Below, piece by piece: positions 1 through 4,925 of a stretch of 4,925 nt of DNA. Origin of the DNA: a virus (lineage: Duplodnaviria > Heunggongvirae > Uroviricota > Caudoviricetes). Position 1 is the stretch's first letter; every line of letters starts with the position of its first letter. The stretch lies in IMG/VR virus record IMGVR_UViG_3300029471_000068. The stretch is one strand, 5' to 3'. A program made the position numbers and the translations under genes. The notes under the pieces were generated by a model. That model was not told the origin of the DNA. It was given only the letters and a program-made list of their open reading frames with translations, and did not search any database.

Positions 1-296
1 GGCTGTTGCTTCACACACCTTTCCAGCGCCCGCTCCACACGCAGCACGTTGGAGATCAGCCCTTCCGCTGCCTGTCGTTCCGTAATGGTTTTGCCGGGAA
101 TGACGCCCGATGTATTACCAATGCCGTCGGTCCAGACACCCGCGCTGCACTGATACGGCTGCAGACGACAGCCTTCGTAATCGGCAATCAGTTTCAGCCC
201 CTCCACGGAGGTGTGAAGCTGCTGAAAACCCGGCAGCATGGCAGCAATAGCCAGCACGGTCCCGACAAGGCAGCGTTTAACGATTGATGGATTCAT
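1..296 (-). CDS. Phage endolysin, GH24 lysozyme with N-terminal signal-anchor-release (SAR) domain; 3' end lies beyond the window start (partial)
   Basis: Hand translation of the minus strand from ATG 296..294 gives MNPSIVKRCLVGTVLAIAAMLPGFQQLHTSVEGLKLIADYEGCRLQPYQCSAGVWTDGIGNTSGVIPGKTITERQAAEGLISNVLRVERALERCVKQQP. The Gly/Ala-rich weakly hydrophobic N-terminus and the E-G-C ... C ... D-G-I-G-N-T block closely resemble P1 Lyz-type SAR lysozymes as I recall them. GGAGG lies just upstream of the ATG. The start overlaps the 3' end of the upstream holin gene. Not in the supplied ORF track because it is open at the window edge. Confidence 0.8.
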   Translation of the reverse strand, partial: MNPSIVKRCLVGTVLAIAAMLPGFQQLHTSVEGLKLIADYEGCRLQPYQCSAGVWTDGIGNTSGVIPGKTITERQAAEGLISNVLRVERALERCVKQQ

Positions 297-492
297 AGTC
301 CTCCCGCGAGATCTGCCCGTCGCGCAGAAGCTGGTAGGCTTTGTGTTTGTAGTACCAGTTGATAGCCAGCATCAGCACACCAATCATCAGGCCGCCCAGC
401 GTTGAGGCATCCTTGATGGACAAATCGCCCAGCCAGGCCAGCACGACGGCGATGCAATACGTGATAAAGGCGCTGATTCGCTCAAGCGTCAT
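277..492 (-). CDS. Putative class II holin or pinholin (71 aa, two predicted transmembrane helices, charged C-terminus)
   Basis: ORF 277..492 (-). Two hydrophobic segments (ISAFITYCIAVVLAWLG and LGGLMIGVLMLAINWYY) are followed by a K/R/D/E-rich tail. It sits between tail gene X and the endolysin, which is the holin slot of the P2 lysis cassette. Size and topology resemble the phage 21 S21 pinholin. The call rests on position and topology, not on sequence identity. Confidence 0.6.
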   Translation of the reverse strand: MTLERISAFITYCIAVVLAWLGDLSIKDASTLGGLMIGVLMLAINWYYKHKAYQLLRDGQISREDYESINR

Positions 493-495
493 AAT

Positions 496-699
496 TCAGT
501 CCCATAGCTGGACGGTCTGCACGGTGGTGGTGGTCGGAATGTCCGGCAGCTCCACCTGCAGCCCGTGAGGTAAAAAGGGGCCGTGTTCGGCAAGCCCCGG
601 ATTTGCCTTCAGTACCTGCTCCGTGACACCCTGCGTGCGCCCGTAATGACGCCAGCAAAGCGCGTCCACCGTGTCATACTGATGCGCACGCACTTTCAT
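496..699 (-). CDS. X: P2-type tail protein X (small LysM-like tail/baseplate protein)
   Basis: ORF 496..699 (-), 67 aa: MKVRAHQYDTVDALCWRHYGRTQGVTEQVLKANPGLAEHGPFLPHGLQVELPDIPTT. It matches the recalled P2 gpX pattern (GDTLDAIC-RYYGRT-G-VE-VL-ANPGLAE-G--LPHG--VELPD). Its ATG overlaps the gpL stop as ATGA (699-701). Confidence 0.85.
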   Translation of the reverse strand: MKVRAHQYDTVDALCWRHYGRTQGVTEQVLKANPGLAEHGPFLPHGLQVELPDIPTTTTVQTVQLWD

Positions 700-1163
700 C
701 AGATAAGCTCCACTGTGCAGTGCGGCGCATCCTGCACCCGGCTGATGGCCCAGCGGGCGTCACGCCACAAATCACCGCTTGCTTCCGCCAGTTCCTCGCC
801 CCGCTTCACACCGGACGCCGTGGCGTCATAGTCCTGGTAACGTTCGTTGAGCATGGCGCGTGCCCAGCAGTAAACCGCGTTGAAATAGTGCTGAATGCGC
901 TCACTTTTGCCGTCCAGCTGTTCCGCCGGAACCTCTGCCAGCGAGGCATACCCCAGCATCTGCTGGCGTCTGCGAAACTCATACAGCTCTGCGTTGACCT
1001 CCGAAATTGCCGACAGCGCAACCTGCTTTAAACGCGGCTGCGTCACCGTGCCGTCAGTGCGCATCACGCTGCGAAACTCCGACAGGTCCACATCAGGCCA
1101 GAACGGCGTATTCCTGATGATTTCCGCCTGTTCCGGTGCCTGTTCTGGCGCAACAAACTTCAT
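699..1163 (-). CDS. L: P2-type head completion/stabilisation protein gpL
   Basis: Minus-strand ORF ending NAELYEFRRRQQ...LAEVPAEQLDG...ELWRDARWAISRVQDAPHCTVELI, which matches recalled P2 gpL (NAELYEYREQK...LADVPADDIDG...ELWRDMRWAVARIQGKPRCIVSQI). Start placed at ATG 1163..1161, preceded by AGGAGA with a 7-nt spacer. The ORF track extends to a GTG at 1226 with no obvious SD, so the start is ambiguous by 63 nt. Confidence 0.85.
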   Translation of the reverse strand: MKFVAPEQAPEQAEIIRNTPFWPDVDLSEFRSVMRTDGTVTQPRLKQVALSAISEVNAELYEFRRRQQMLGYASLAEVPAEQLDGKSERIQHYFNAVYCWARAMLNERYQDYDATASGVKRGEELAEASGDLWRDARWAISRVQDAPHCTVELI

Positions 1164-1258
1164 GCTGCTTTCTCCTGAAATAGAGGGCGGTGGACGGGGT
1201 TTTGATGTGGCAGTGCCTTTCGCCACCCCGTGCCGCCCGTGCGCGGGGGCACGTTCTG

Positions 1259-1900
1259 TCAGCGGCTGTCATTGCGCAGTCTGCGCTCCAGCTGCTGTTT
1301 GTCTTTTTTCACGCCACAGCGGGGATCGAGCTGTAACGCATGGTTGAGATGATTAAGGGCGGAAGCCGGGTTGCTTTCACTCAGGACAGCGCCAATCGCT
1401 TTATGCAGACGCGCCCGTGACTGGTCCGGCATATCCAGACCGTCTGNNNNNNNNNNAGCTCCAGCGTCTGCAGCAACAGATCGGCATCAAAGCCGGTGGC
1501 GGCAAGCATTGCGCTCTGCGCCGCGTCTGCCATTTCCTCTGCCAGCACGGTCTGCACGTTGCGGTTACCCAGCGGCATCACCCAGCCATGACGCAGGGCA
1601 TGACGCCCGATCTCCAGCGCCCCGGCATAATCTCCGGCATCAATGCGCCACAGCATCACGTACATCAGCACGTCATCCTGCTGAGCGCCTCCGGCAGCCA
1701 GGACGCCCTCCGCCCAGGCGGCATATTTCGGCAACAGCTCCACCTTGATTTCCGCTTTTTTCACCGTGGACTGAACGCCCTTGAGACGGCGGCGGTCTTC
1801 CGCCAGTTGCAGCAGCATCAGGTCATAGCCCGACGCGTGGCGAACGCTGCCGCCCTCGCGGGCGGCCTGTTCAGCCTGAACGTGCGGGACTCAGGCTCAT
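1259..1900 (-). CDS. M: P2-type terminase small (endonuclease) subunit gpM; reading frame disrupted as given (apparent 1-nt frameshift near 1883-1886 and a 10-nt N-gap at 1447-1456)
   Basis: Three collinear pieces. (a) ATG 1900..1898 with GGAG upstream, 4 nt from the gpN stop, gives MSLSPA (compare P2 M start MTSPAQ as recalled). (b) Frame ending at 1818 and extending upstream without any start codon gives HVQAEQAAREGGSVRHASGYDLMLLQLAEDRRRLKG...GGAQQDDVLMYVMLWRIDAGDYAGALEIGRHALRHG...LLLQTLE. (c) After the gap, DGLDMPDQSRARLHKAIGAVLSESNPASALNHLNHALQLDPRCGVKKDKQQLERRLRNDSR with stop TGA at 1261..1259. Together these align along the recalled P2 gpM sequence. Confidence 0.8.
1447..1456. other. 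Assembly gap (10 N) inside gpM
   Basis: Run of n. gpM continues in a different frame on the far side, so the N count is not the true length. Confidence 0.95.
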
Positions 1901-1903
1901 GGG

Positions 1904-2962
1904 TTACGCTCCGGCTTCTGCTGCAGCGGCGCTGAAATCGCCAATCTGGATGTTTTCCACCAGTGCGGCGCAGCGGTAGTCCTCAACCACATAGGCTTCG
2001 TTAACGGATTCAAAATTTTCAATCCGGTCACGTTTCGGGTTGTCGATAACTGAACGGCGGCGGGTGTCTTCCTGCCAGTAGATGGACAGGTTATCCAGAC
2101 GGGTGATCAGCAGCGCATTCGGCGGGAAGAACGGCGCACGCACGGCCTGCAGGCCACCCATGCGTTTCTGACTGATGATCATATCGGCAGCCAGTTTTTC
2201 ACTGTTTTCCTGCTCTTTGTTGACCAGCGGGAAATACTTGTCAGACAGCAGTTCACGACCGCAAATCACCACCAGATCGTCATCGTCCTGGTAGACCACA
2301 TCGATAAGCTCATTGACGGCATCCATCACTACGGCGTCCAGGTTGGCATATTCGCCACCTTTCCCGACTTTCACCGCGCCCGGAGTGGTTTCACCGCCCG
2401 TGGTGGTGCTGCCCATGACGTGATCCGGTGCATCCTCACGGATTTTCTGCAGCCAGCCTTTGTTAACATCCTGCAGCAGCGGGTTTTCACTACGGTTGGA
2501 GGTTTTCGCACGCTTCACGCCGTTAAAGCCGATCATGATGCGGTCCAGTGCCTGACGTTTCACGATGGCGTCACGGATGCGCACCTGGAAATCCTGAAAC
2601 TTCGCCCACAGGTCCAGCTTCGCGTAGGTCAGCACCGTGTCAAAGTTGGTCTGCTCGCATTTATATTCCACATCGACCATCAGCGTCGGATCGACAGGTT
2701 CACGCTCTTTCGCGGTGGTGTCAGTGGTTCCGGCAATGGTGCTGCCAACACCCAGCCCCAGCAGCTGACCGGACTGCTCAGTCACTGGCGTGACGTTAAT
2801 CAGCGTCAGGAAAGCGGCGGACTGCTGGATCTGGTCTTCCAGCGTCTGCTGCACAGACGGCTCCACGGTGAACTTGCTGGACAGTTCTTCAACTGCCACA
2901 CCGTTCAGACGCGCCAGCTGCTGCAGGTAAGCGTTAAAAGCAAAGCGGGTATTCTTCTTCAT
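1904..2962 (-). CDS. N: P2-type major capsid protein gpN
   Basis: ORF 1904..2962 (-), 352 aa: MKKNTRFAFNAYLQQLARLNGV...KFTVEPSVQQTL...RIRDAIVKRQALDRIMIGFNGVKRAKTS...NPLLQDVNKGWLQK...GKGGEYANLDAVVMDA...VVICGRELLSDKYFPLVNKEQENSEKLAADMIISQKRMG...NLSIYWQ...YVVEDY...GDFS. Near-collinear with recalled P2 gpN (MRQETRFKFNAYL...FTVEPSVTQTL...). ATG 2962 is preceded by GGAG. Confidence 0.95.
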   Translation of the reverse strand: MKKNTRFAFNAYLQQLARLNGVAVEELSSKFTVEPSVQQTLEDQIQQSAAFLTLINVTPVTEQSGQLLGLGVGSTIAGTTDTTAKEREPVDPTLMVDVEYKCEQTNFDTVLTYAKLDLWAKFQDFQVRIRDAIVKRQALDRIMIGFNGVKRAKTSNRSENPLLQDVNKGWLQKIREDAPDHVMGSTTTGGETTPGAVKVGKGGEYANLDAVVMDAVNELIDVVYQDDDDLVVICGRELLSDKYFPLVNKEQENSEKLAADMIISQKRMGGLQAVRAPFFPPNALLITRLDNLSIYWQEDTRRRSVIDNPKRDRIENFESVNEAYVVEDYRCAALVENIQIGDFSAAAAEAGA

Positions 2963-2989
2963 CGGGTTTTGTGCTCCATCAGCAATTGG

Positions 2990-3828
2990 TCAGAGTGTCA
3001 ACGGGGNNNNNNNNNNNNNNNNNNNNNNNNNNNNNNNNNNNNNNNNNNNNNNNNNNNNNNNNNNNNNNNNNNNCACCAGTTCGTTAAAGGCGGTCAGCTG
3101 TGCCTGCAGGGCAGTCTCCAGCTCAGACAGGCGTTCTTCCTGCTCAGACAGGGATTTTTCGGTGCGTGCGCTCAGGTTCTGCTGCTCAGTGGCGACCAGC
3201 TCCACGGCCTTATGCACATCAGAGAACCGGGCGTCATCGGACCGCTCTTTTTTGGTAAACAGCGCCGTGACGCGGGCAAACAGGGACGGTTTGTCGTCCT
3301 GGATTTCTTCCAGTTCGATCACCGTTTCCTCTGCAGCGGTAAAGAGATTGGCAGGATTCTGTTTGCGGTTTGCCAGCGGGTTATGGGCTGCACTGGCGCT
3401 GAATGTCAGCATTTCAGTGCCCAGACTGGCGGGATCATCAGTGGCGGCCAGGCCAACCAGGTAGGCTTTGCCCGTATCAGCAAACTTCGGGCTGACTTCC
3501 ATAGAGGTGAATAATTTCTGGCCTTTTTTCACCAGTTCCACCAGGGACTCCGTTGGCTCAACGTCGGCATACAGCGCCATCTTGCCTGCNNNNNNNNNNN
3601 NNNNNNNNNNNNNNNNNNNNNNNNNNNNNNNNNNNNNNNNNNNNNNNNNNNNNNNNNNNNNNNNNNNNNNNNNAGATAAGACTTGATGTGCTCAAGGTTA
3701 ATCAGCGCGGTGTACACCGTCGGGTTGTAGCTGGCTGCCATCTGTTCCAGCCATTCACGCTGGATTTCGCGTCCGTCGGTGGTGGCACCTTCCACCCCGA
3801 TGCGAAAACGCTTTGCTTTCACTGTCAT
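2990..3828 (-). CDS. O: P2-type capsid scaffolding protein gpO; interrupted by two N-gaps (3007-3073, 3590-3673), exact 3' end uncertain
   Basis: N-terminal piece from ATG 3828: MTVKAKRFRIGVEGATTDGREIQREWLEQMAASYNPTVYTALINLEHIKSY. Central piece: ...[39 protein letters not shown]...HNPL...SDDARFSDVHKAVELVATEQQNLSARTEKSL. Both match recalled P2 gpO (FRIGVEGDT-DGR...[57 protein letters not shown]). The two pieces are in different frames across the 84-N gap. The stop at 2990-2992 lies after the 67-N gap, so its frame is unverified. Confidence 0.85.
3007..3073. other. Assembly gap (67 N) inside the 3' part of gpO
   Basis: Run of n within the gpO coding region. Confidence 0.95.
3590..3673. other. 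Assembly gap (84 N) inside the 5' part of gpO
   Basis: Run of n. The flanking gpO segments are in different frames although 84 is a multiple of 3, so the gap length is an estimate. Confidence 0.95.
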
Positions 3829-3970
3829 GAGCCGTGCTCCGTTAGAAAAAACTTACTGGAGCCTTATGGTTGCGGTGATGGGGGCAGTGAAACAATGCGC
3901 GGTATTTGTACCGGCAACCACACAAACCGCAGGCGGGGAAAGCCTTCATTCAAGGTTGTAGGTTTGTGCC
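3829..3970. promoter_or_regulatory. Divergent late-promoter control region between gpO (minus) and gpP (plus)
   Basis: 142-bp non-coding spacer between two divergently oriented morphogenetic genes, which is where P2 places its O and P late promoters. It contains the TGT-N12-ACA dyad listed separately. A CATAAG -10-like hexamer lies on the minus strand about 3863-3868, and GGAG lies 8 nt upstream of the gpO ATG. Confidence 0.55.
3907..3924. promoter_or_regulatory. TGT-N12-ACA dyad: candidate binding site for an Ogr/Delta-family zinc-finger late activator
   Basis: Sequence TGTACCGGCAACCACACA at 3907-3924 fits exactly the TGT-N12-ACA element described for P2/P4 late promoters, normally centred near -55. 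Its centre (about 3915) is roughly 55-60 bp upstream of a plausible minus-strand start site near 3856-3860 for the O-N-M-L operon. Confidence 0.45.
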
Positions 3971-4399
3971 ATGAACACCACACTGACACCCGCAGATCTC
4001 GATCCCCGTCGGCAGGCCATGCTGCTGTACTTTCAGGGATACCGCGTAGCCCGCATTGCTGAAATGCTGGGCGAGAAAGTTGCAACCGTTCACAGCTGGA
4101 AAAAACGCGACAAGTGGGGTGACTATGGGCCGCTGGATCAGATGCAGCTCACCACCGCCGCACGCTACTGCCAGCTCATCATGAAGGAGCACAAAGAAGG
4201 GAAAGATTTCAAAGAGATTGACCTGCTGGCGCGCCAGTCGGAGCGCCACGCGCGGATCGGCAAGTTTAACAATGGCGGCAACGAAGCCGACTTAAACCCT
4301 AACGTCGCCAACCGCAATAAAGGCCCACGCCGTCAGCCGGAAAAGAATGTTTTCACCGATGAGCAGATTGAGAAGCTGGAAGAAATGGAGGAGATTTAG
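3971..4399 (+). CDS. P: P2-type terminase large (ATPase) subunit gpP, N-terminal 142 codons only; truncated by the junction with foreign sequence
   Basis: ORF 3971..4399 (+): MNTTLTPADLDPRRQAMLLYFQGYRVARIAEMLGEKVATVHSWKKRDKWG...DFKEIDLLARQSERHARIGKFNNGGNEADLNPNVANRNKGPRRQPEKNVFTDEQIEKL. This matches the conserved N-terminus of P2-family terminase ATPase subunits (DPRR-A-LLYW-G; KEIDLL-RQ-ERLARV; GGNEADLNP-ANRNKGPRR-PEKN). Full-length homologues are roughly 590 aa; here a stop follows at 4397-4399 and the downstream DNA is unrelated. Confidence 0.85.
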   Translation: MNTTLTPADLDPRRQAMLLYFQGYRVARIAEMLGEKVATVHSWKKRDKWGDYGPLDQMQLTTAARYCQLIMKEHKEGKDFKEIDLLARQSERHARIGKFNNGGNEADLNPNVANRNKGPRRQPEKNVFTDEQIEKLEEMEEI

Positions 4400-4744
4400 A
4401 TGGGAAGAGAATTGTTGAAGATGGCGGATGGGTTTGCTTTGGTTGCGGAGAGCCTGCGGGAGTTGGCGGGACAGGCTGTGGAAGAAGCAAAGGCGGAGAT
4501 GAAGCAGGAGAGCAAAACAGAGAAAGGCACAGCAGATAAGAACACAGCCAGAGTAAAAGTGGATAAGAAAAAAGAGGAACAGAAGGTGGCTGTGGAGGAT
4601 ATCCGTGTGGTTCTGGCGGAGAAGTCACAGGAGGGAAAAACTAAGGAAATTAAGGAACTGCTGGGAAAATACGGGGTGGCAAAGCTGTCTGCCGTGGAGG
4701 AGAAAGATTATCCGGCGCTGCTTGCGGAAGCGAAGGTGCTGTGA
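4400..4744 (+). CDS. Hypothetical K/E-rich 114-aa protein of foreign (Firmicutes-like) origin; function unknown
   Basis: ORF 4400..4744 (+), preceded by GGAGGAG with a 6-nt spacer. Coding strand is strongly purine-rich and uses AGA (Arg), GGA/GGG (Gly) and TTG (Leu), unlike the rest of the window. I do not recognise the protein. Its stop overlaps the next ATG (TGATG at 4742-4746). Confidence 0.5.
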   Translation: MGRELLKMADGFALVAESLRELAGQAVEEAKAEMKQESKTEKGTADKNTARVKVDKKKEEQKVAVEDIRVVLAEKSQEGKTKEIKELLGKYGVAKLSAVEEKDYPALLAEAKVL

Positions 4745-4925
4745 TGGGGAGACATGCGCTGTTATCTGCTTCTTCCTCCAAGCGGTGGCTGAACTGTACA
4801 CCGTCTGCAAGGCTGGAGGAGCAGTTCACGGGAGAAACCGGGAGCGTATATGCGGAGGAAGGCACTGCCGCCCATGCCCTGGCGGAGCATAAGCTGAAAC
4901 GGCTGTTGAAGCGGCGTTCCAAGCG
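4744..4925 (+). CDS. N-terminus of a putative DUF2800-family PD-(D/E)XK nuclease (phage replication/recombination module); continues beyond the window end (partial)
   Basis: Hand translation from ATG 4744: MGRHALLSASSSKRWLNCTPSARLEEQFTGETGSVYAEEGTAAHALAEHKLKRLLKRRSK. The HALLSASS--RWLNC-PSARL ... AEEGT-AH pattern matches, from memory, the conserved N-terminus of DUF2800 proteins found in Firmicutes phages and ICEs. Open at the window edge, so absent from the ORF track. Confidence 0.5.
   Translation, partial: MGRHALLSASSSKRWLNCTPSARLEEQFTGETGSVYAEEGTAAHALAEHKLKRLLKRRSK

What the first reader, a model, noticed from the sequence alone, without database searches (positions are those of the whole stretch)
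4400..4925. Start of a Firmicutes-style phage replication/recombination module (K/E-rich small protein plus DUF2800-like nuclease)
The two ORFs are translationally coupled (TGATG overlap) and the second begins MGRHALLSASSSKRWLNCTPSARLEEQF...AEEGTAAHALAEH. From memory this resembles the N-terminus of DUF2800 PD-(D/E)XK nucleases, which in Firmicutes phages usually sit in a cluster with DUF2815, a family A DNA polymerase and a helicase. Such a module next to P2-type enterobacterial head genes would be a very unusual mosaic if real. The upstream 114-aa protein is not recognisable to me.
Basis: partly seen in the sequence, partly recalled or inferred. Interest (0 to 1): 0.55.

Follow-up and report, generated by a model that had tools for sequence, protein, structure and literature searches.

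The report
Assembly chimera joining two unrelated phages
The two genes really are the start of a well-known phage DNA replication/recombination module from a gut Lachnospiraceae prophage, but their position next to E. coli P2-type head genes is almost certainly a metagenome-assembly misjoin through a chance 21-base identity, not a real mosaic phage.

Summary
ORF 4400-4744 (114 aa, 32% K+E) overlaps by TGATG an ORF starting at 4744. The 60 visible residues of that ORF match Pfam DUF2800 (E 5.5e-21).

The "unusual mosaic" is very probably not real. Identity of 98-99.9% to E. coli/Klebsiella P2-like prophages stops exactly at 4386, at codon 138 of the 588-aa terminase gpP. From 4387 the DNA is 98.3-99.3% identical to Lachnospiraceae prophage DNA. 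The two parents share exactly 21 identical bases at the switch (4366-4386) and no 22-mer; 21 is the smallest k of metaSPAdes and MEGAHIT. Both genes at the join are broken. The window is a scaffold with three N gaps.

The junction is absent from 5,426 complete E. coli genomes, IMG/VR, JGI metagenomes and GTDB genomes. It recurs only in one 802-bp ENA scaffold, joined there to a different variant of the Firmicutes phage, so it formed independently.

The module is already described and the exact 114-aa protein is common in public assemblies. Interest is low.

The parts
1..4386 (.). Segment of a P2-like (Peduoviridae) enterobacterial prophage. It carries holin 277-492(-), gpX 496-699(-), gpL 699-1226(-), gpM 1381-1818(-), gpN major capsid 1904-2962(-), gpO scaffold 2990-3828(-) and the gpP N-terminus 3971-4386(+).
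   Evidence: 96-99% identical to Escherichia phage vB_EcoM-813R9. Window 3674-4386 is up to 99.9% identical to E. coli chromosomes.
1447..1456 (.). Run of 10 N, read as a scaffold gap inside gpM.
3007..3073 (.). Run of 67 N where the reference has 62 bases, read as a scaffold gap of estimated size.
3590..3673 (.). Run of 84 N where the reference has 73 bases, read as a scaffold gap. The last contig piece, which carries the chimeric join, begins at 3674.
   Evidence: The independent chimeric scaffold L013 begins at the position equivalent to window 3667.
3971..4399 (+). Chimeric 142-aa ORF. It joins gpP terminase residues 1-138 (HTH/Terminase_5 domain only) to the last four codons (MEEI) and the stop of a Lachnospiraceae-phage DUF7768 gene.
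   Evidence: Full gpP is 588 aa, with Terminase_6N at residues 162-382 and Terminase_6C at 410-571. Both domains are missing here.
4366..4386 (.). GATTGAGAAGCTGGAAGAAAT, the 21-base stretch identical in both parents and the crossover point of the misjoin. It encodes IEKLEE in the same frame in both.
   Evidence: It is the only run of 16 or more bases shared between the parents, and no 22-mer is shared.
4387..4925 (+). Segment of a Lachnospiraceae (Firmicutes) prophage.
   Evidence: 98.3-99.3% identical to eight native contigs of up to 316 kb, and 94% to IMG/VR UViG 3300028971_000006. No match in 5,426 complete E. coli genomes.
4400..4744 (+). 114-aa protein of family phrog_408 (function unknown). 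It has an N-terminal helix (3-29), a disordered K/E-rich linker, and a conserved C-terminal three-helix bundle (about 62-114). It is the conserved gene directly upstream of DUF2800.
4744..4925 (+). First 60 codons of a DUF2800 PD-(D/E)XK (Cas4/RecB-like) exonuclease gene, cut by the window end. The full protein in relatives is 379 aa.
   Evidence: The 60 residues are identical to L005, L008 and L012.

Best explanation
The window is a metagenome scaffold that is chimeric in silico. Bases 1-4386 come from a P2-like prophage of E. coli/Klebsiella. Bases 4387-4925 come from a common human-gut Lachnospiraceae prophage. The two unrelated genomes happen to share one exact 21-mer, GATTGAGAAGCTGGAAGAAAT, which encodes IEKLEE in both the terminase gpP and a DUF7768 gene. 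In a de Bruijn graph built at k=21, the first k of metaSPAdes and MEGAHIT, this 21-mer is a shared node. If coverage is thin, the true continuation of gpP and the true upstream part of the Firmicutes gene are lost, and the only remaining path runs from one genome into the other. That k=21 contig is then carried into later k rounds. The shared 21-mer, the exact switch point and the thinness implied by the gaps are shown; this graph mechanism is inferred. The right-hand genes themselves are real and ordinary. They are the first two genes of the known duf2800 / gp2.5-like SSAP (DUF2815) / polA replication-recombination module. In that module the DUF2800 nuclease (PD-(D/E)XK, Cas4/RecB-like with Fe-S cysteines) presumably resects DNA ends for the annealing protein. 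This role is inferred from family knowledge. The 114-aa protein is a conserved, translationally coupled small partner of unknown role. My low-confidence guess is that it is an accessory or adaptor subunit whose C-terminal three-helix bundle binds the nuclease, the SSAP or DNA.
For: (1) Identity to P2-like phages stops at exactly window 4386 in all 58 phage records and all 1,191 E. coli genomes that match. The alignment shows the switch after ...GAAGAAAT.
(2) Native Firmicutes contigs read ...GAACTGATTGAGAAGCTGGAAGAAATGGAGGAGATTTAGATGGG. The parents are identical for exactly 21 bases (4366-4386), with no shared 22-mer.
(3) Both genes at the join are truncated. gpP loses its ATPase and nuclease domains. 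The DUF7768 gene keeps only its last codons.
(4) The exact 114-aa protein is listed in 101 blocks of the collection. In all 8 places shown of the 23 contigs read it is flanked by DUF7768 genes upstream and by DUF2800, Enc34_ssDNA-bd, PolA and (where the locus reaches that far) VapE downstream. These contigs reach 316 kb and none carries P2 genes.
(5) The right part has no match in 5,426 complete E. coli genomes. The junction is absent from IMG/VR, JGI metagenomes and GTDB genomes.
(6) The only other copy of the junction is an 802-bp ENA scaffold. Its left side differs from the window at 7 of 713 bases, but its right side differs at 14 of the 69 bases past the start codon. It therefore joins a different phage variant and arose independently, as a k-mer artefact would.
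(7) The window has three N runs whose lengths differ from the reference, which marks a fragmented, scaffolded, low-coverage assembly. mOTUs-db uses SPAdes in metagenomic mode to make 'scaffolds' (PMC11701688). The scaffold name of the second copy resembles that resource's naming as I remember it; this attribution is inferred.
(8) A 33-kb phage is expected to share about 7 chance 21-mers with 5x10^8 bases of other metagenome DNA.
Against: I could not find the window's own source record or its reads, so no read-level test of the join was possible. Recurrence of the same junction in a second assembly could also be read as a real recombination hotspot. A 21-base microhomology could in principle support illegitimate recombination in vivo. 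Final contigs of multi-k assemblers come from larger k, so survival of a k=21 join needs low coverage. That is suggested by the gaps but not measured. The default k list of the assemblers is from my own knowledge, not from a tool result.
Confidence: 0.93

Rival explanations
1. A real DNA molecule. A P2-like prophage in an enterobacterium acquired Lachnospiraceae-phage DNA by illegitimate recombination at the 21-base microhomology. The result would be a defective mosaic prophage.
For: The join lies at a microhomology and keeps the reading frame. The same junction appears in a second public scaffold.
Against: The terminase is destroyed at residue 138 of 588, so the phage could not package DNA. 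None of the 1,191 complete E. coli genomes with this prophage type continues past 4386, and the right part matches no complete E. coli genome. The junction is absent from IMG/VR, JGI and GTDB. The two copies of the junction carry different Firmicutes-phage variants (20% against 1% divergence on the two sides). That would need two independent cross-phylum events at the same 21 bases. In both copies the foreign part is a short tail at a contig end (82 and 539 bases).
Confidence: 0.03
2. A physical chimera made during library preparation, for example template switching in PCR or MDA, or ligation. The molecule would be real in the tube but not in any cell.
For: Template switching favours short identities such as this 21-mer (established knowledge). 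This cannot be told apart from an in-silico join without reads.
Against: Such chimeras are rare single molecules and seldom dominate an assembly path. Recurrence in an independent assembly with different partner variants fits a deterministic graph artefact better.
Confidence: 0.03
3. The window was spliced together from two records after assembly, by a concatenation or database error rather than by the assembler.
For: The window's own source record could not be located.
Against: A splice at random would not fall exactly on the only 21-mer the two genomes share. A public ENA scaffold carries the same junction.
Confidence: 0.01

Closest known systems
duf2800 - gp2.5-like SSAP (DUF2815 / Pfam Enc34_ssDNA-bd) - polA module of tailed phages (Steczkiewicz 2012 as cited in PMC8093625), also core genes 1-3 of Candidatus Heliusviridae (PMC9226167)
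   Same: The window's second ORF is the DUF2800 gene. Native contigs with the identical upstream gene continue with Enc34_ssDNA-bd, DNA_pol_A and VapE, and with an SNF2 helicase in L004. The nearest named phage, Ruminococcus phage NatCom_38182, is filed under Ca. Heliusvirales and has the same order.
   Different: Only the first 60 codons of DUF2800 are inside the window, and the rest of the module is not. Membership of Heliusviridae was not tested for the remaining core genes.
phrog_408 (phage protein family of unknown function, often mislabelled 'rRNA biogenesis protein rrp5')
   Same: The 114-aa protein matches at E 4.5e-22 over nearly the full length. Relatives sit directly upstream of DUF2800 in Lachnospiraceae, Ruminococcus, Streptococcus, Erysipelothrix and Gardnerella phages.
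   Different: No function is known. Outside the Lachnospiraceae-type phages (32-40% identity over the full length) only the C-terminal 48 or so residues are conserved. Fold searches gave only generic three-helix-bundle matches.
Inter-genome chimeric contigs from de Bruijn graph metagenome assemblers
   Same: There is an abrupt switch of source organism at a shared exact k-mer whose length equals the smallest k. Genes are broken on both sides, the foreign tail sits at a contig end, and the scaffold is fragmented.
   Different: Read-level confirmation (coverage break, discordant pairs) could not be obtained here.
Phage P2 / Peduoviridae late-gene cluster (Q-P divergent from O-N-M-L-X-holin)
   Same: The gene order and 96-99.9% nucleotide identity of window 1-4386 match.
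   Different: gpP is cut at residue 138 and gpQ is absent, so this is not an intact P2-like packaging module.

Membership tests
DUF2800 (PF10926), PD-(D/E)XK nuclease superfamily | Significant match to the family HMM above the gathering score | tested here: met
   E 5.5e-21, 75.6 bits against a cut-off of 21. Residues 4-59 match profile positions 1-55 of 368. The full-length relative in L004 scores E 4e-160 and also matches PDDEXK_1 at 3.7e-10.
DUF2800 (PF10926), PD-(D/E)XK nuclease superfamily | Catalytic D...(D/E)xK motif and QxxxY motif | not testable with these tools
   These motifs lie beyond the window end. In L005, whose first 60 residues are identical to the window's, they are D118, D131-L-K133 and Q147xxxY151, conserved in five diverse relatives.
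DUF2800 (PF10926), PD-(D/E)XK nuclease superfamily | Cas4/AddB-like cysteine set (one N-terminal Cys plus CxxCx5C) | tested here: inconclusive
   The N-terminal Cys18 (WLNCTPS) is in the window. C218, C221 and C227 are seen only in full-length relatives.
duf2800-gp2.5-polA replication/recombination module | DUF2800 followed by DUF2815/Enc34_ssDNA-bd and a family A polymerase | tested here: inconclusive
   Not visible in the window, which ends at 4925. It is met in all 8 native contigs shown that carry the identical 114-aa gene, and in L004.
Candidatus Heliusviridae / Heliusvirales | Nine shared core genes: DUF2800, DUF2815, Pol I, VRR-NUC, SNF2 helicase, TerL, portal, Clp protease and MCP (PMC9226167) | tested here: inconclusive
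   DUF2800, DUF2815, PolA and SNF2 were found in the native relative L004. The other five were not examined. The nearest named phage is classified there.
Functional P2-like mosaic phage | Intact large terminase (ATPase and nuclease domains) next to the head genes | tested here: not met
   The ORF ends after gpP residue 138. Terminase_6N (162-382) and Terminase_6C (410-571) are absent.
Functional P2-like mosaic phage | The junction occurs in finished genomes or curated viral genomes | tested here: not met
   It is found in 0 of 5,426 complete E. coli genomes and in no IMG/VR, JGI or GTDB record.
De Bruijn graph assembly chimera | The parents share an exact word of the assembler's k at the switch point, and nothing longer | tested here: met
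   A 21-base identity at 4366-4386, with no shared 22-mer.
De Bruijn graph assembly chimera | Each side is near-identical to a different, unrelated genome that continues differently in its native context | tested here: met
   The left side is 99-99.9% identical to E. coli prophages. The right side is 98.3-99.3% identical to Lachnospiraceae prophage contigs.
De Bruijn graph assembly chimera | No spanning reads or pairs, and a change of read depth at the junction | not testable with these tools
   The raw reads and the window's source sample are not available.
phrog_408 | Significant match to the family HMM over most of its length | tested here: met
   E 4.5e-22. Residues 15-114 match profile positions 10-108 of 111.

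The most novel reading that the evidence does not exclude
The junction is a real DNA molecule: a defective P2-like enterobacterial prophage that captured the replication-module end of a Lachnospiraceae phage by microhomology-mediated recombination. That would be direct cross-phylum phage-to-phage DNA exchange in the gut, and it would have happened at least twice at the same 21-base site.
Probability: 0.03. Interest if true: 0.7.

Novelty: already known. Interest (0 to 1): 0.08.

Why it matters
The value here is cautionary. A scan that flags "unusual mosaics" will pick up inter-genome assembly chimeras, and this one has a clean signature: the switch falls at the only 21-mer the two genomes share, genes are broken on both sides, and the foreign sequence is a short tail at a scaffold end. 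The same false join occurs in at least one public ENA scaffold, where it has produced a chimeric 142-aa "terminase" protein now present in protein collections. A minor positive point is that a small phrog_408 protein is a consistently linked, unnamed fourth gene of the duf2800-gp2.5-polA module across several Gram-positive phage groups. It is often mislabelled 'rrp5'.

Tried and rejected
- **Exact-pattern scans for the window's junction.** A 56-base pattern was scanned against GTDB genomes, IMG/VR and JGI metagenomes, and a 38-base degenerate pattern against IMG/VR and JGI. All returned nothing. The reciprocal junction (Firmicutes left, P2 right) was also absent from IMG/VR. A scan of GTDB genomes for the native Firmicutes sequence found nothing, so no host genome title was obtained. 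The host was inferred from protein names instead.
- **Function of the 114-aa protein.**
  - Pfam gave only sub-threshold noise and NCBIfam gave nothing meaningful.
  - A PDB profile search gave only coiled-coil or low-complexity noise.
  - The AlphaFold model is confident only for the C-terminal three-helix bundle.
  - Foldseek against PDB gave nothing. Foldseek against BFVD gave only uncharacterised phage proteins. The afdb50 library was unavailable.
- **Solved structures for DUF2800.** None was detectable by sequence.
- **Readings considered and rejected.** I rejected the N runs being deliberate masks, because their lengths differ from the reference (67 against 62, 84 against 73). I rejected a single ancestral recombinant explaining both copies of the junction, because divergence is unequal on the two sides.

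Full report
**Observation.** The window holds an ATG-started ORF at 4400-4744 (+) of 114 aa. It has 19 Lys and 18 Glu, or 32%. Its TGA stop shares one base with the ATG at 4744 (...GTGCTGTGATGGGG...).

The second ORF reads MGRHALLSASSSKRWLNCTPSARLEEQFTGETGSVYAEEGTAAHALAEHKLKRLLKRRSK and runs off the end of the window. Pfam gives DUF2800 (PF10926) at E 5.5e-21 and 75.6 bits against a gathering score of 21, with residues 4-59 on profile positions 1-55 of 368. PHROGs gives phrog_69 'exonuclease' at E 1.9e-19.

**What lies to the left, and where it stops.** Window 1-4386 is a P2-like (Peduoviridae) late-gene cluster. On the minus strand it carries an HP1-family holin, gpX, gpL, gpM, the gpN major capsid protein and the gpO scaffold. 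On the plus strand it carries the N-terminus of the large terminase gpP.

This segment is 96-99% identical to Escherichia phage vB_EcoM-813R9 and to many Klebsiella and E. coli prophages. Window 3674-4386 is up to 99.9% identical to E. coli chromosomes. In every one of the 58 phage records and the 1,191 complete E. coli genomes that match, the match ends at exactly window 4386.

A pairwise alignment shows the window following the P2-like sequence through ...GAGAAGCTGGAAGAAAT and then departing completely. That point is codon 138 of a 588-codon gene. The ATPase domain (Terminase_6N, residues 162-382) and the nuclease domain (Terminase_6C, residues 410-571) are missing.

**What lies to the right.** Window 4387-4925 has no match in 5,426 complete E. 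coli genomes. Among deposited phages it has only 69-74% matches, to human-gut Firmicutes phages such as Ruminococcus phage NatCom_38182 (Ca. Heliusvirales).

A look-up of the exact 114-aa protein listed it in 101 blocks of public assemblies. In all 8 places shown of the 23 contigs read, on contigs of up to 316 kb, the gene order was the same: DUF7768, DUF7768, the 114-aa gene, DUF2800 (379 aa), Enc34_ssDNA-bd (formerly DUF2815), DNA_pol_A and, where the locus reaches that far, VapE-like. No P2 genes were present. These contigs are 98.3-99.3% identical to window 4352-4925.

An IMG/VR relative at 94% identity (L004) shows the same order and adds an SNF2-family helicase. Named homologues of the 114-aa protein come from Enterocloster, Lachnoclostridium, Eisenbergiella, Blautia, Robinsoniella and Lachnotalea, which makes the host a Lachnospiraceae.

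**The junction.** Native Firmicutes contigs read ...CTCCGAGGAACTGATTGAGAAGCTGGAAGAAATGGAGGAGATTTAGATGGG... The P2-like gpP reads ...CACCGATGAACAGATTGAGAAGCTGGAAGAAATTTTCCATTCC....

The two are identical for exactly 21 bases, GATTGAGAAGCTGGAAGAAAT (window 4366-4386). To the left of it the window carries the P2 bases, and to the right the Firmicutes bases. It is the only run of 16 or more bases shared between the parental loci, and no 22-mer is shared.

The 21-mer encodes IEKLEE in frame in both genes. The window's ORF 3971-4399 is therefore a chimeric protein: gpP residues 1-138 followed by MEEI and the stop of the DUF7768 gene.

Chance easily supplies such a word. A 33-kb phage is expected to share about 7 21-mers with 5x10^8 bases of other metagenome DNA.

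**Why I read it as an assembly artefact.**
- The length of the shared word equals the smallest k of the usual metagenome assemblers. To my own knowledge, metaSPAdes uses 21, 33, 55 and MEGAHIT starts at 21.
- Both genes at the join are broken, and an essential gene is destroyed.
- The window is a scaffold with three N runs: 10 N, 67 N against 62 bases in the reference, and 84 N against 73. These are scaffold gaps in a thinly covered genome. That is the situation in which a low-k path through a shared node survives.
- The junction is absent from all complete E. coli genomes, IMG/VR, JGI metagenomes and GTDB species genomes.
- The only other occurrence of the chimeric 142-aa ORF is an 802-bp ENA scaffold (ERZ28578495, DSOU22-1_SAMN20850333_METAG-scaffold_34237). 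Its P2 side differs from the window at 7 of 713 bases. Its Firmicutes side differs at 14 of the 69 bases past the start codon and belongs to another variant of the phage. The same join therefore formed independently with different partners. That is what a deterministic k-mer artefact does, and it would be very unlikely for two cross-phylum recombinations.
- In both cases the foreign part is a short tail at a scaffold end (82 and 539 bases).
- The scaffold's name resembles, from memory, the naming of a resource built with SPAdes in metagenomic mode that outputs scaffolds (mOTUs-db, PMC11701688). Assigning it to that resource is my inference.

**What the right-hand genes do.** The module duf2800 - gp2.5-like SSAP (DUF2815) - polA is already described for phages of Firmicutes and of Gram-negative bacteria (PMC8093625). 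Its three genes are core genes 1-3 of Candidatus Heliusviridae (PMC9226167).

Full-length relatives whose first 60 residues are identical to the window's carry D118, D131-x-K133, Q147xxxY151 and a Cas4/AddB-like cysteine set: C18 plus C218-x2-C221-x5-C227. Only C18 lies inside the window.

By inference from the family, the nuclease resects DNA ends to feed the Gp2.5-like annealing protein during recombination-dependent replication.

**The 114-aa protein.** It belongs to phrog_408, a family of unknown function (E 4.5e-22). An alignment of 29 homologues shows a conserved N-terminal helix, a variable K/E-rich linker and a conserved C-terminal domain of about 50 residues. AlphaFold2 models the C-terminal part as a three-helix bundle with pLDDT around 90 and leaves residues 25-59 disordered.

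Fold and sequence searches gave nothing specific.

The gene sits directly upstream of DUF2800, usually overlapping it. This holds in phages of Lachnospiraceae, Ruminococcus, Streptococcus (Javan102), Erysipelothrix (phi1605) and Gardnerella (vB_Gva_AB1), where it is sometimes mislabelled 'rRNA biogenesis protein rrp5'. I take it to be an accessory subunit of the nuclease/annealing machinery. That is a guess from linkage only.

**Verdict.** The remaining probability is split between a library-preparation chimera, a real defective recombinant and a post-assembly splice. Only read-level data from the source sample can close the question. The module and both proteins are already known and abundant in public data, so interest is low.

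Noticed in passing
window 4400-4744; L002 5717-6043; L014 3363-3656; L015 2360-2662; L016 3336-3653: The small phrog_408 protein is a consistently linked, unnamed fourth gene directly upstream of DUF2800-DUF2815-PolA. This holds in phages of Lachnospiraceae, Ruminococcus, Streptococcus, Erysipelothrix and Gardnerella. It is often mis-annotated as 'rRNA biogenesis protein rrp5', probably because of its K/E-rich linker. In the more distant of these phages only the C-terminal 48 or so residues are conserved.
   Followed up: partly
L013 (ENA ERZ28578495, DSOU22-1_SAMN20850333_METAG-scaffold_34237), 1-802: A second public scaffold carries the same P2/Lachnospiraceae-phage junction with different parental variants. 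The resulting chimeric 142-aa 'terminase' ORF is now in public protein collections.
   Followed up: yes
window 1447-1456, 3007-3073, 3590-3673: There are three runs of N inside P2-like genes (gpM, the gpN/gpO boundary and gpO). Two of them differ in length from the reference, so they are scaffold gaps rather than masks.
   Followed up: yes
L005 5294-6000; L004 9092-9849 (minus strand): The native Lachnospiraceae prophage has two tandem DUF7768 genes just upstream of the 114-aa gene. They match PHROG 355, 'nucleoside 2-deoxyribosyltransferase'-like. Only the last four codons of the second one survive in the window (4387-4399).
   Followed up: partly
model of window 4400-4741 against BFVD: [quoted passage not shown] From memory, these phages carry the same DUF2800/DUF2815/PolA module; this was not checked. 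That hints the small protein may be conserved structurally beyond Gram-positive phages.
   Followed up: no
L005 6345-7484 and relatives: Full-length DUF2800 proteins show a Cas4/AddB-like cysteine pattern (C18 plus CxxCx5C near residue 220), which suggests an iron-sulfur cluster. They also carry the D...DxK and QxxxY nuclease motifs.
   Followed up: partly
L016 244-2163 (Erysipelothrix phage phi1605): A tetM tetracycline-resistance gene lies about 1 kb upstream of the same replication module in this 90-kb element.
   Followed up: no
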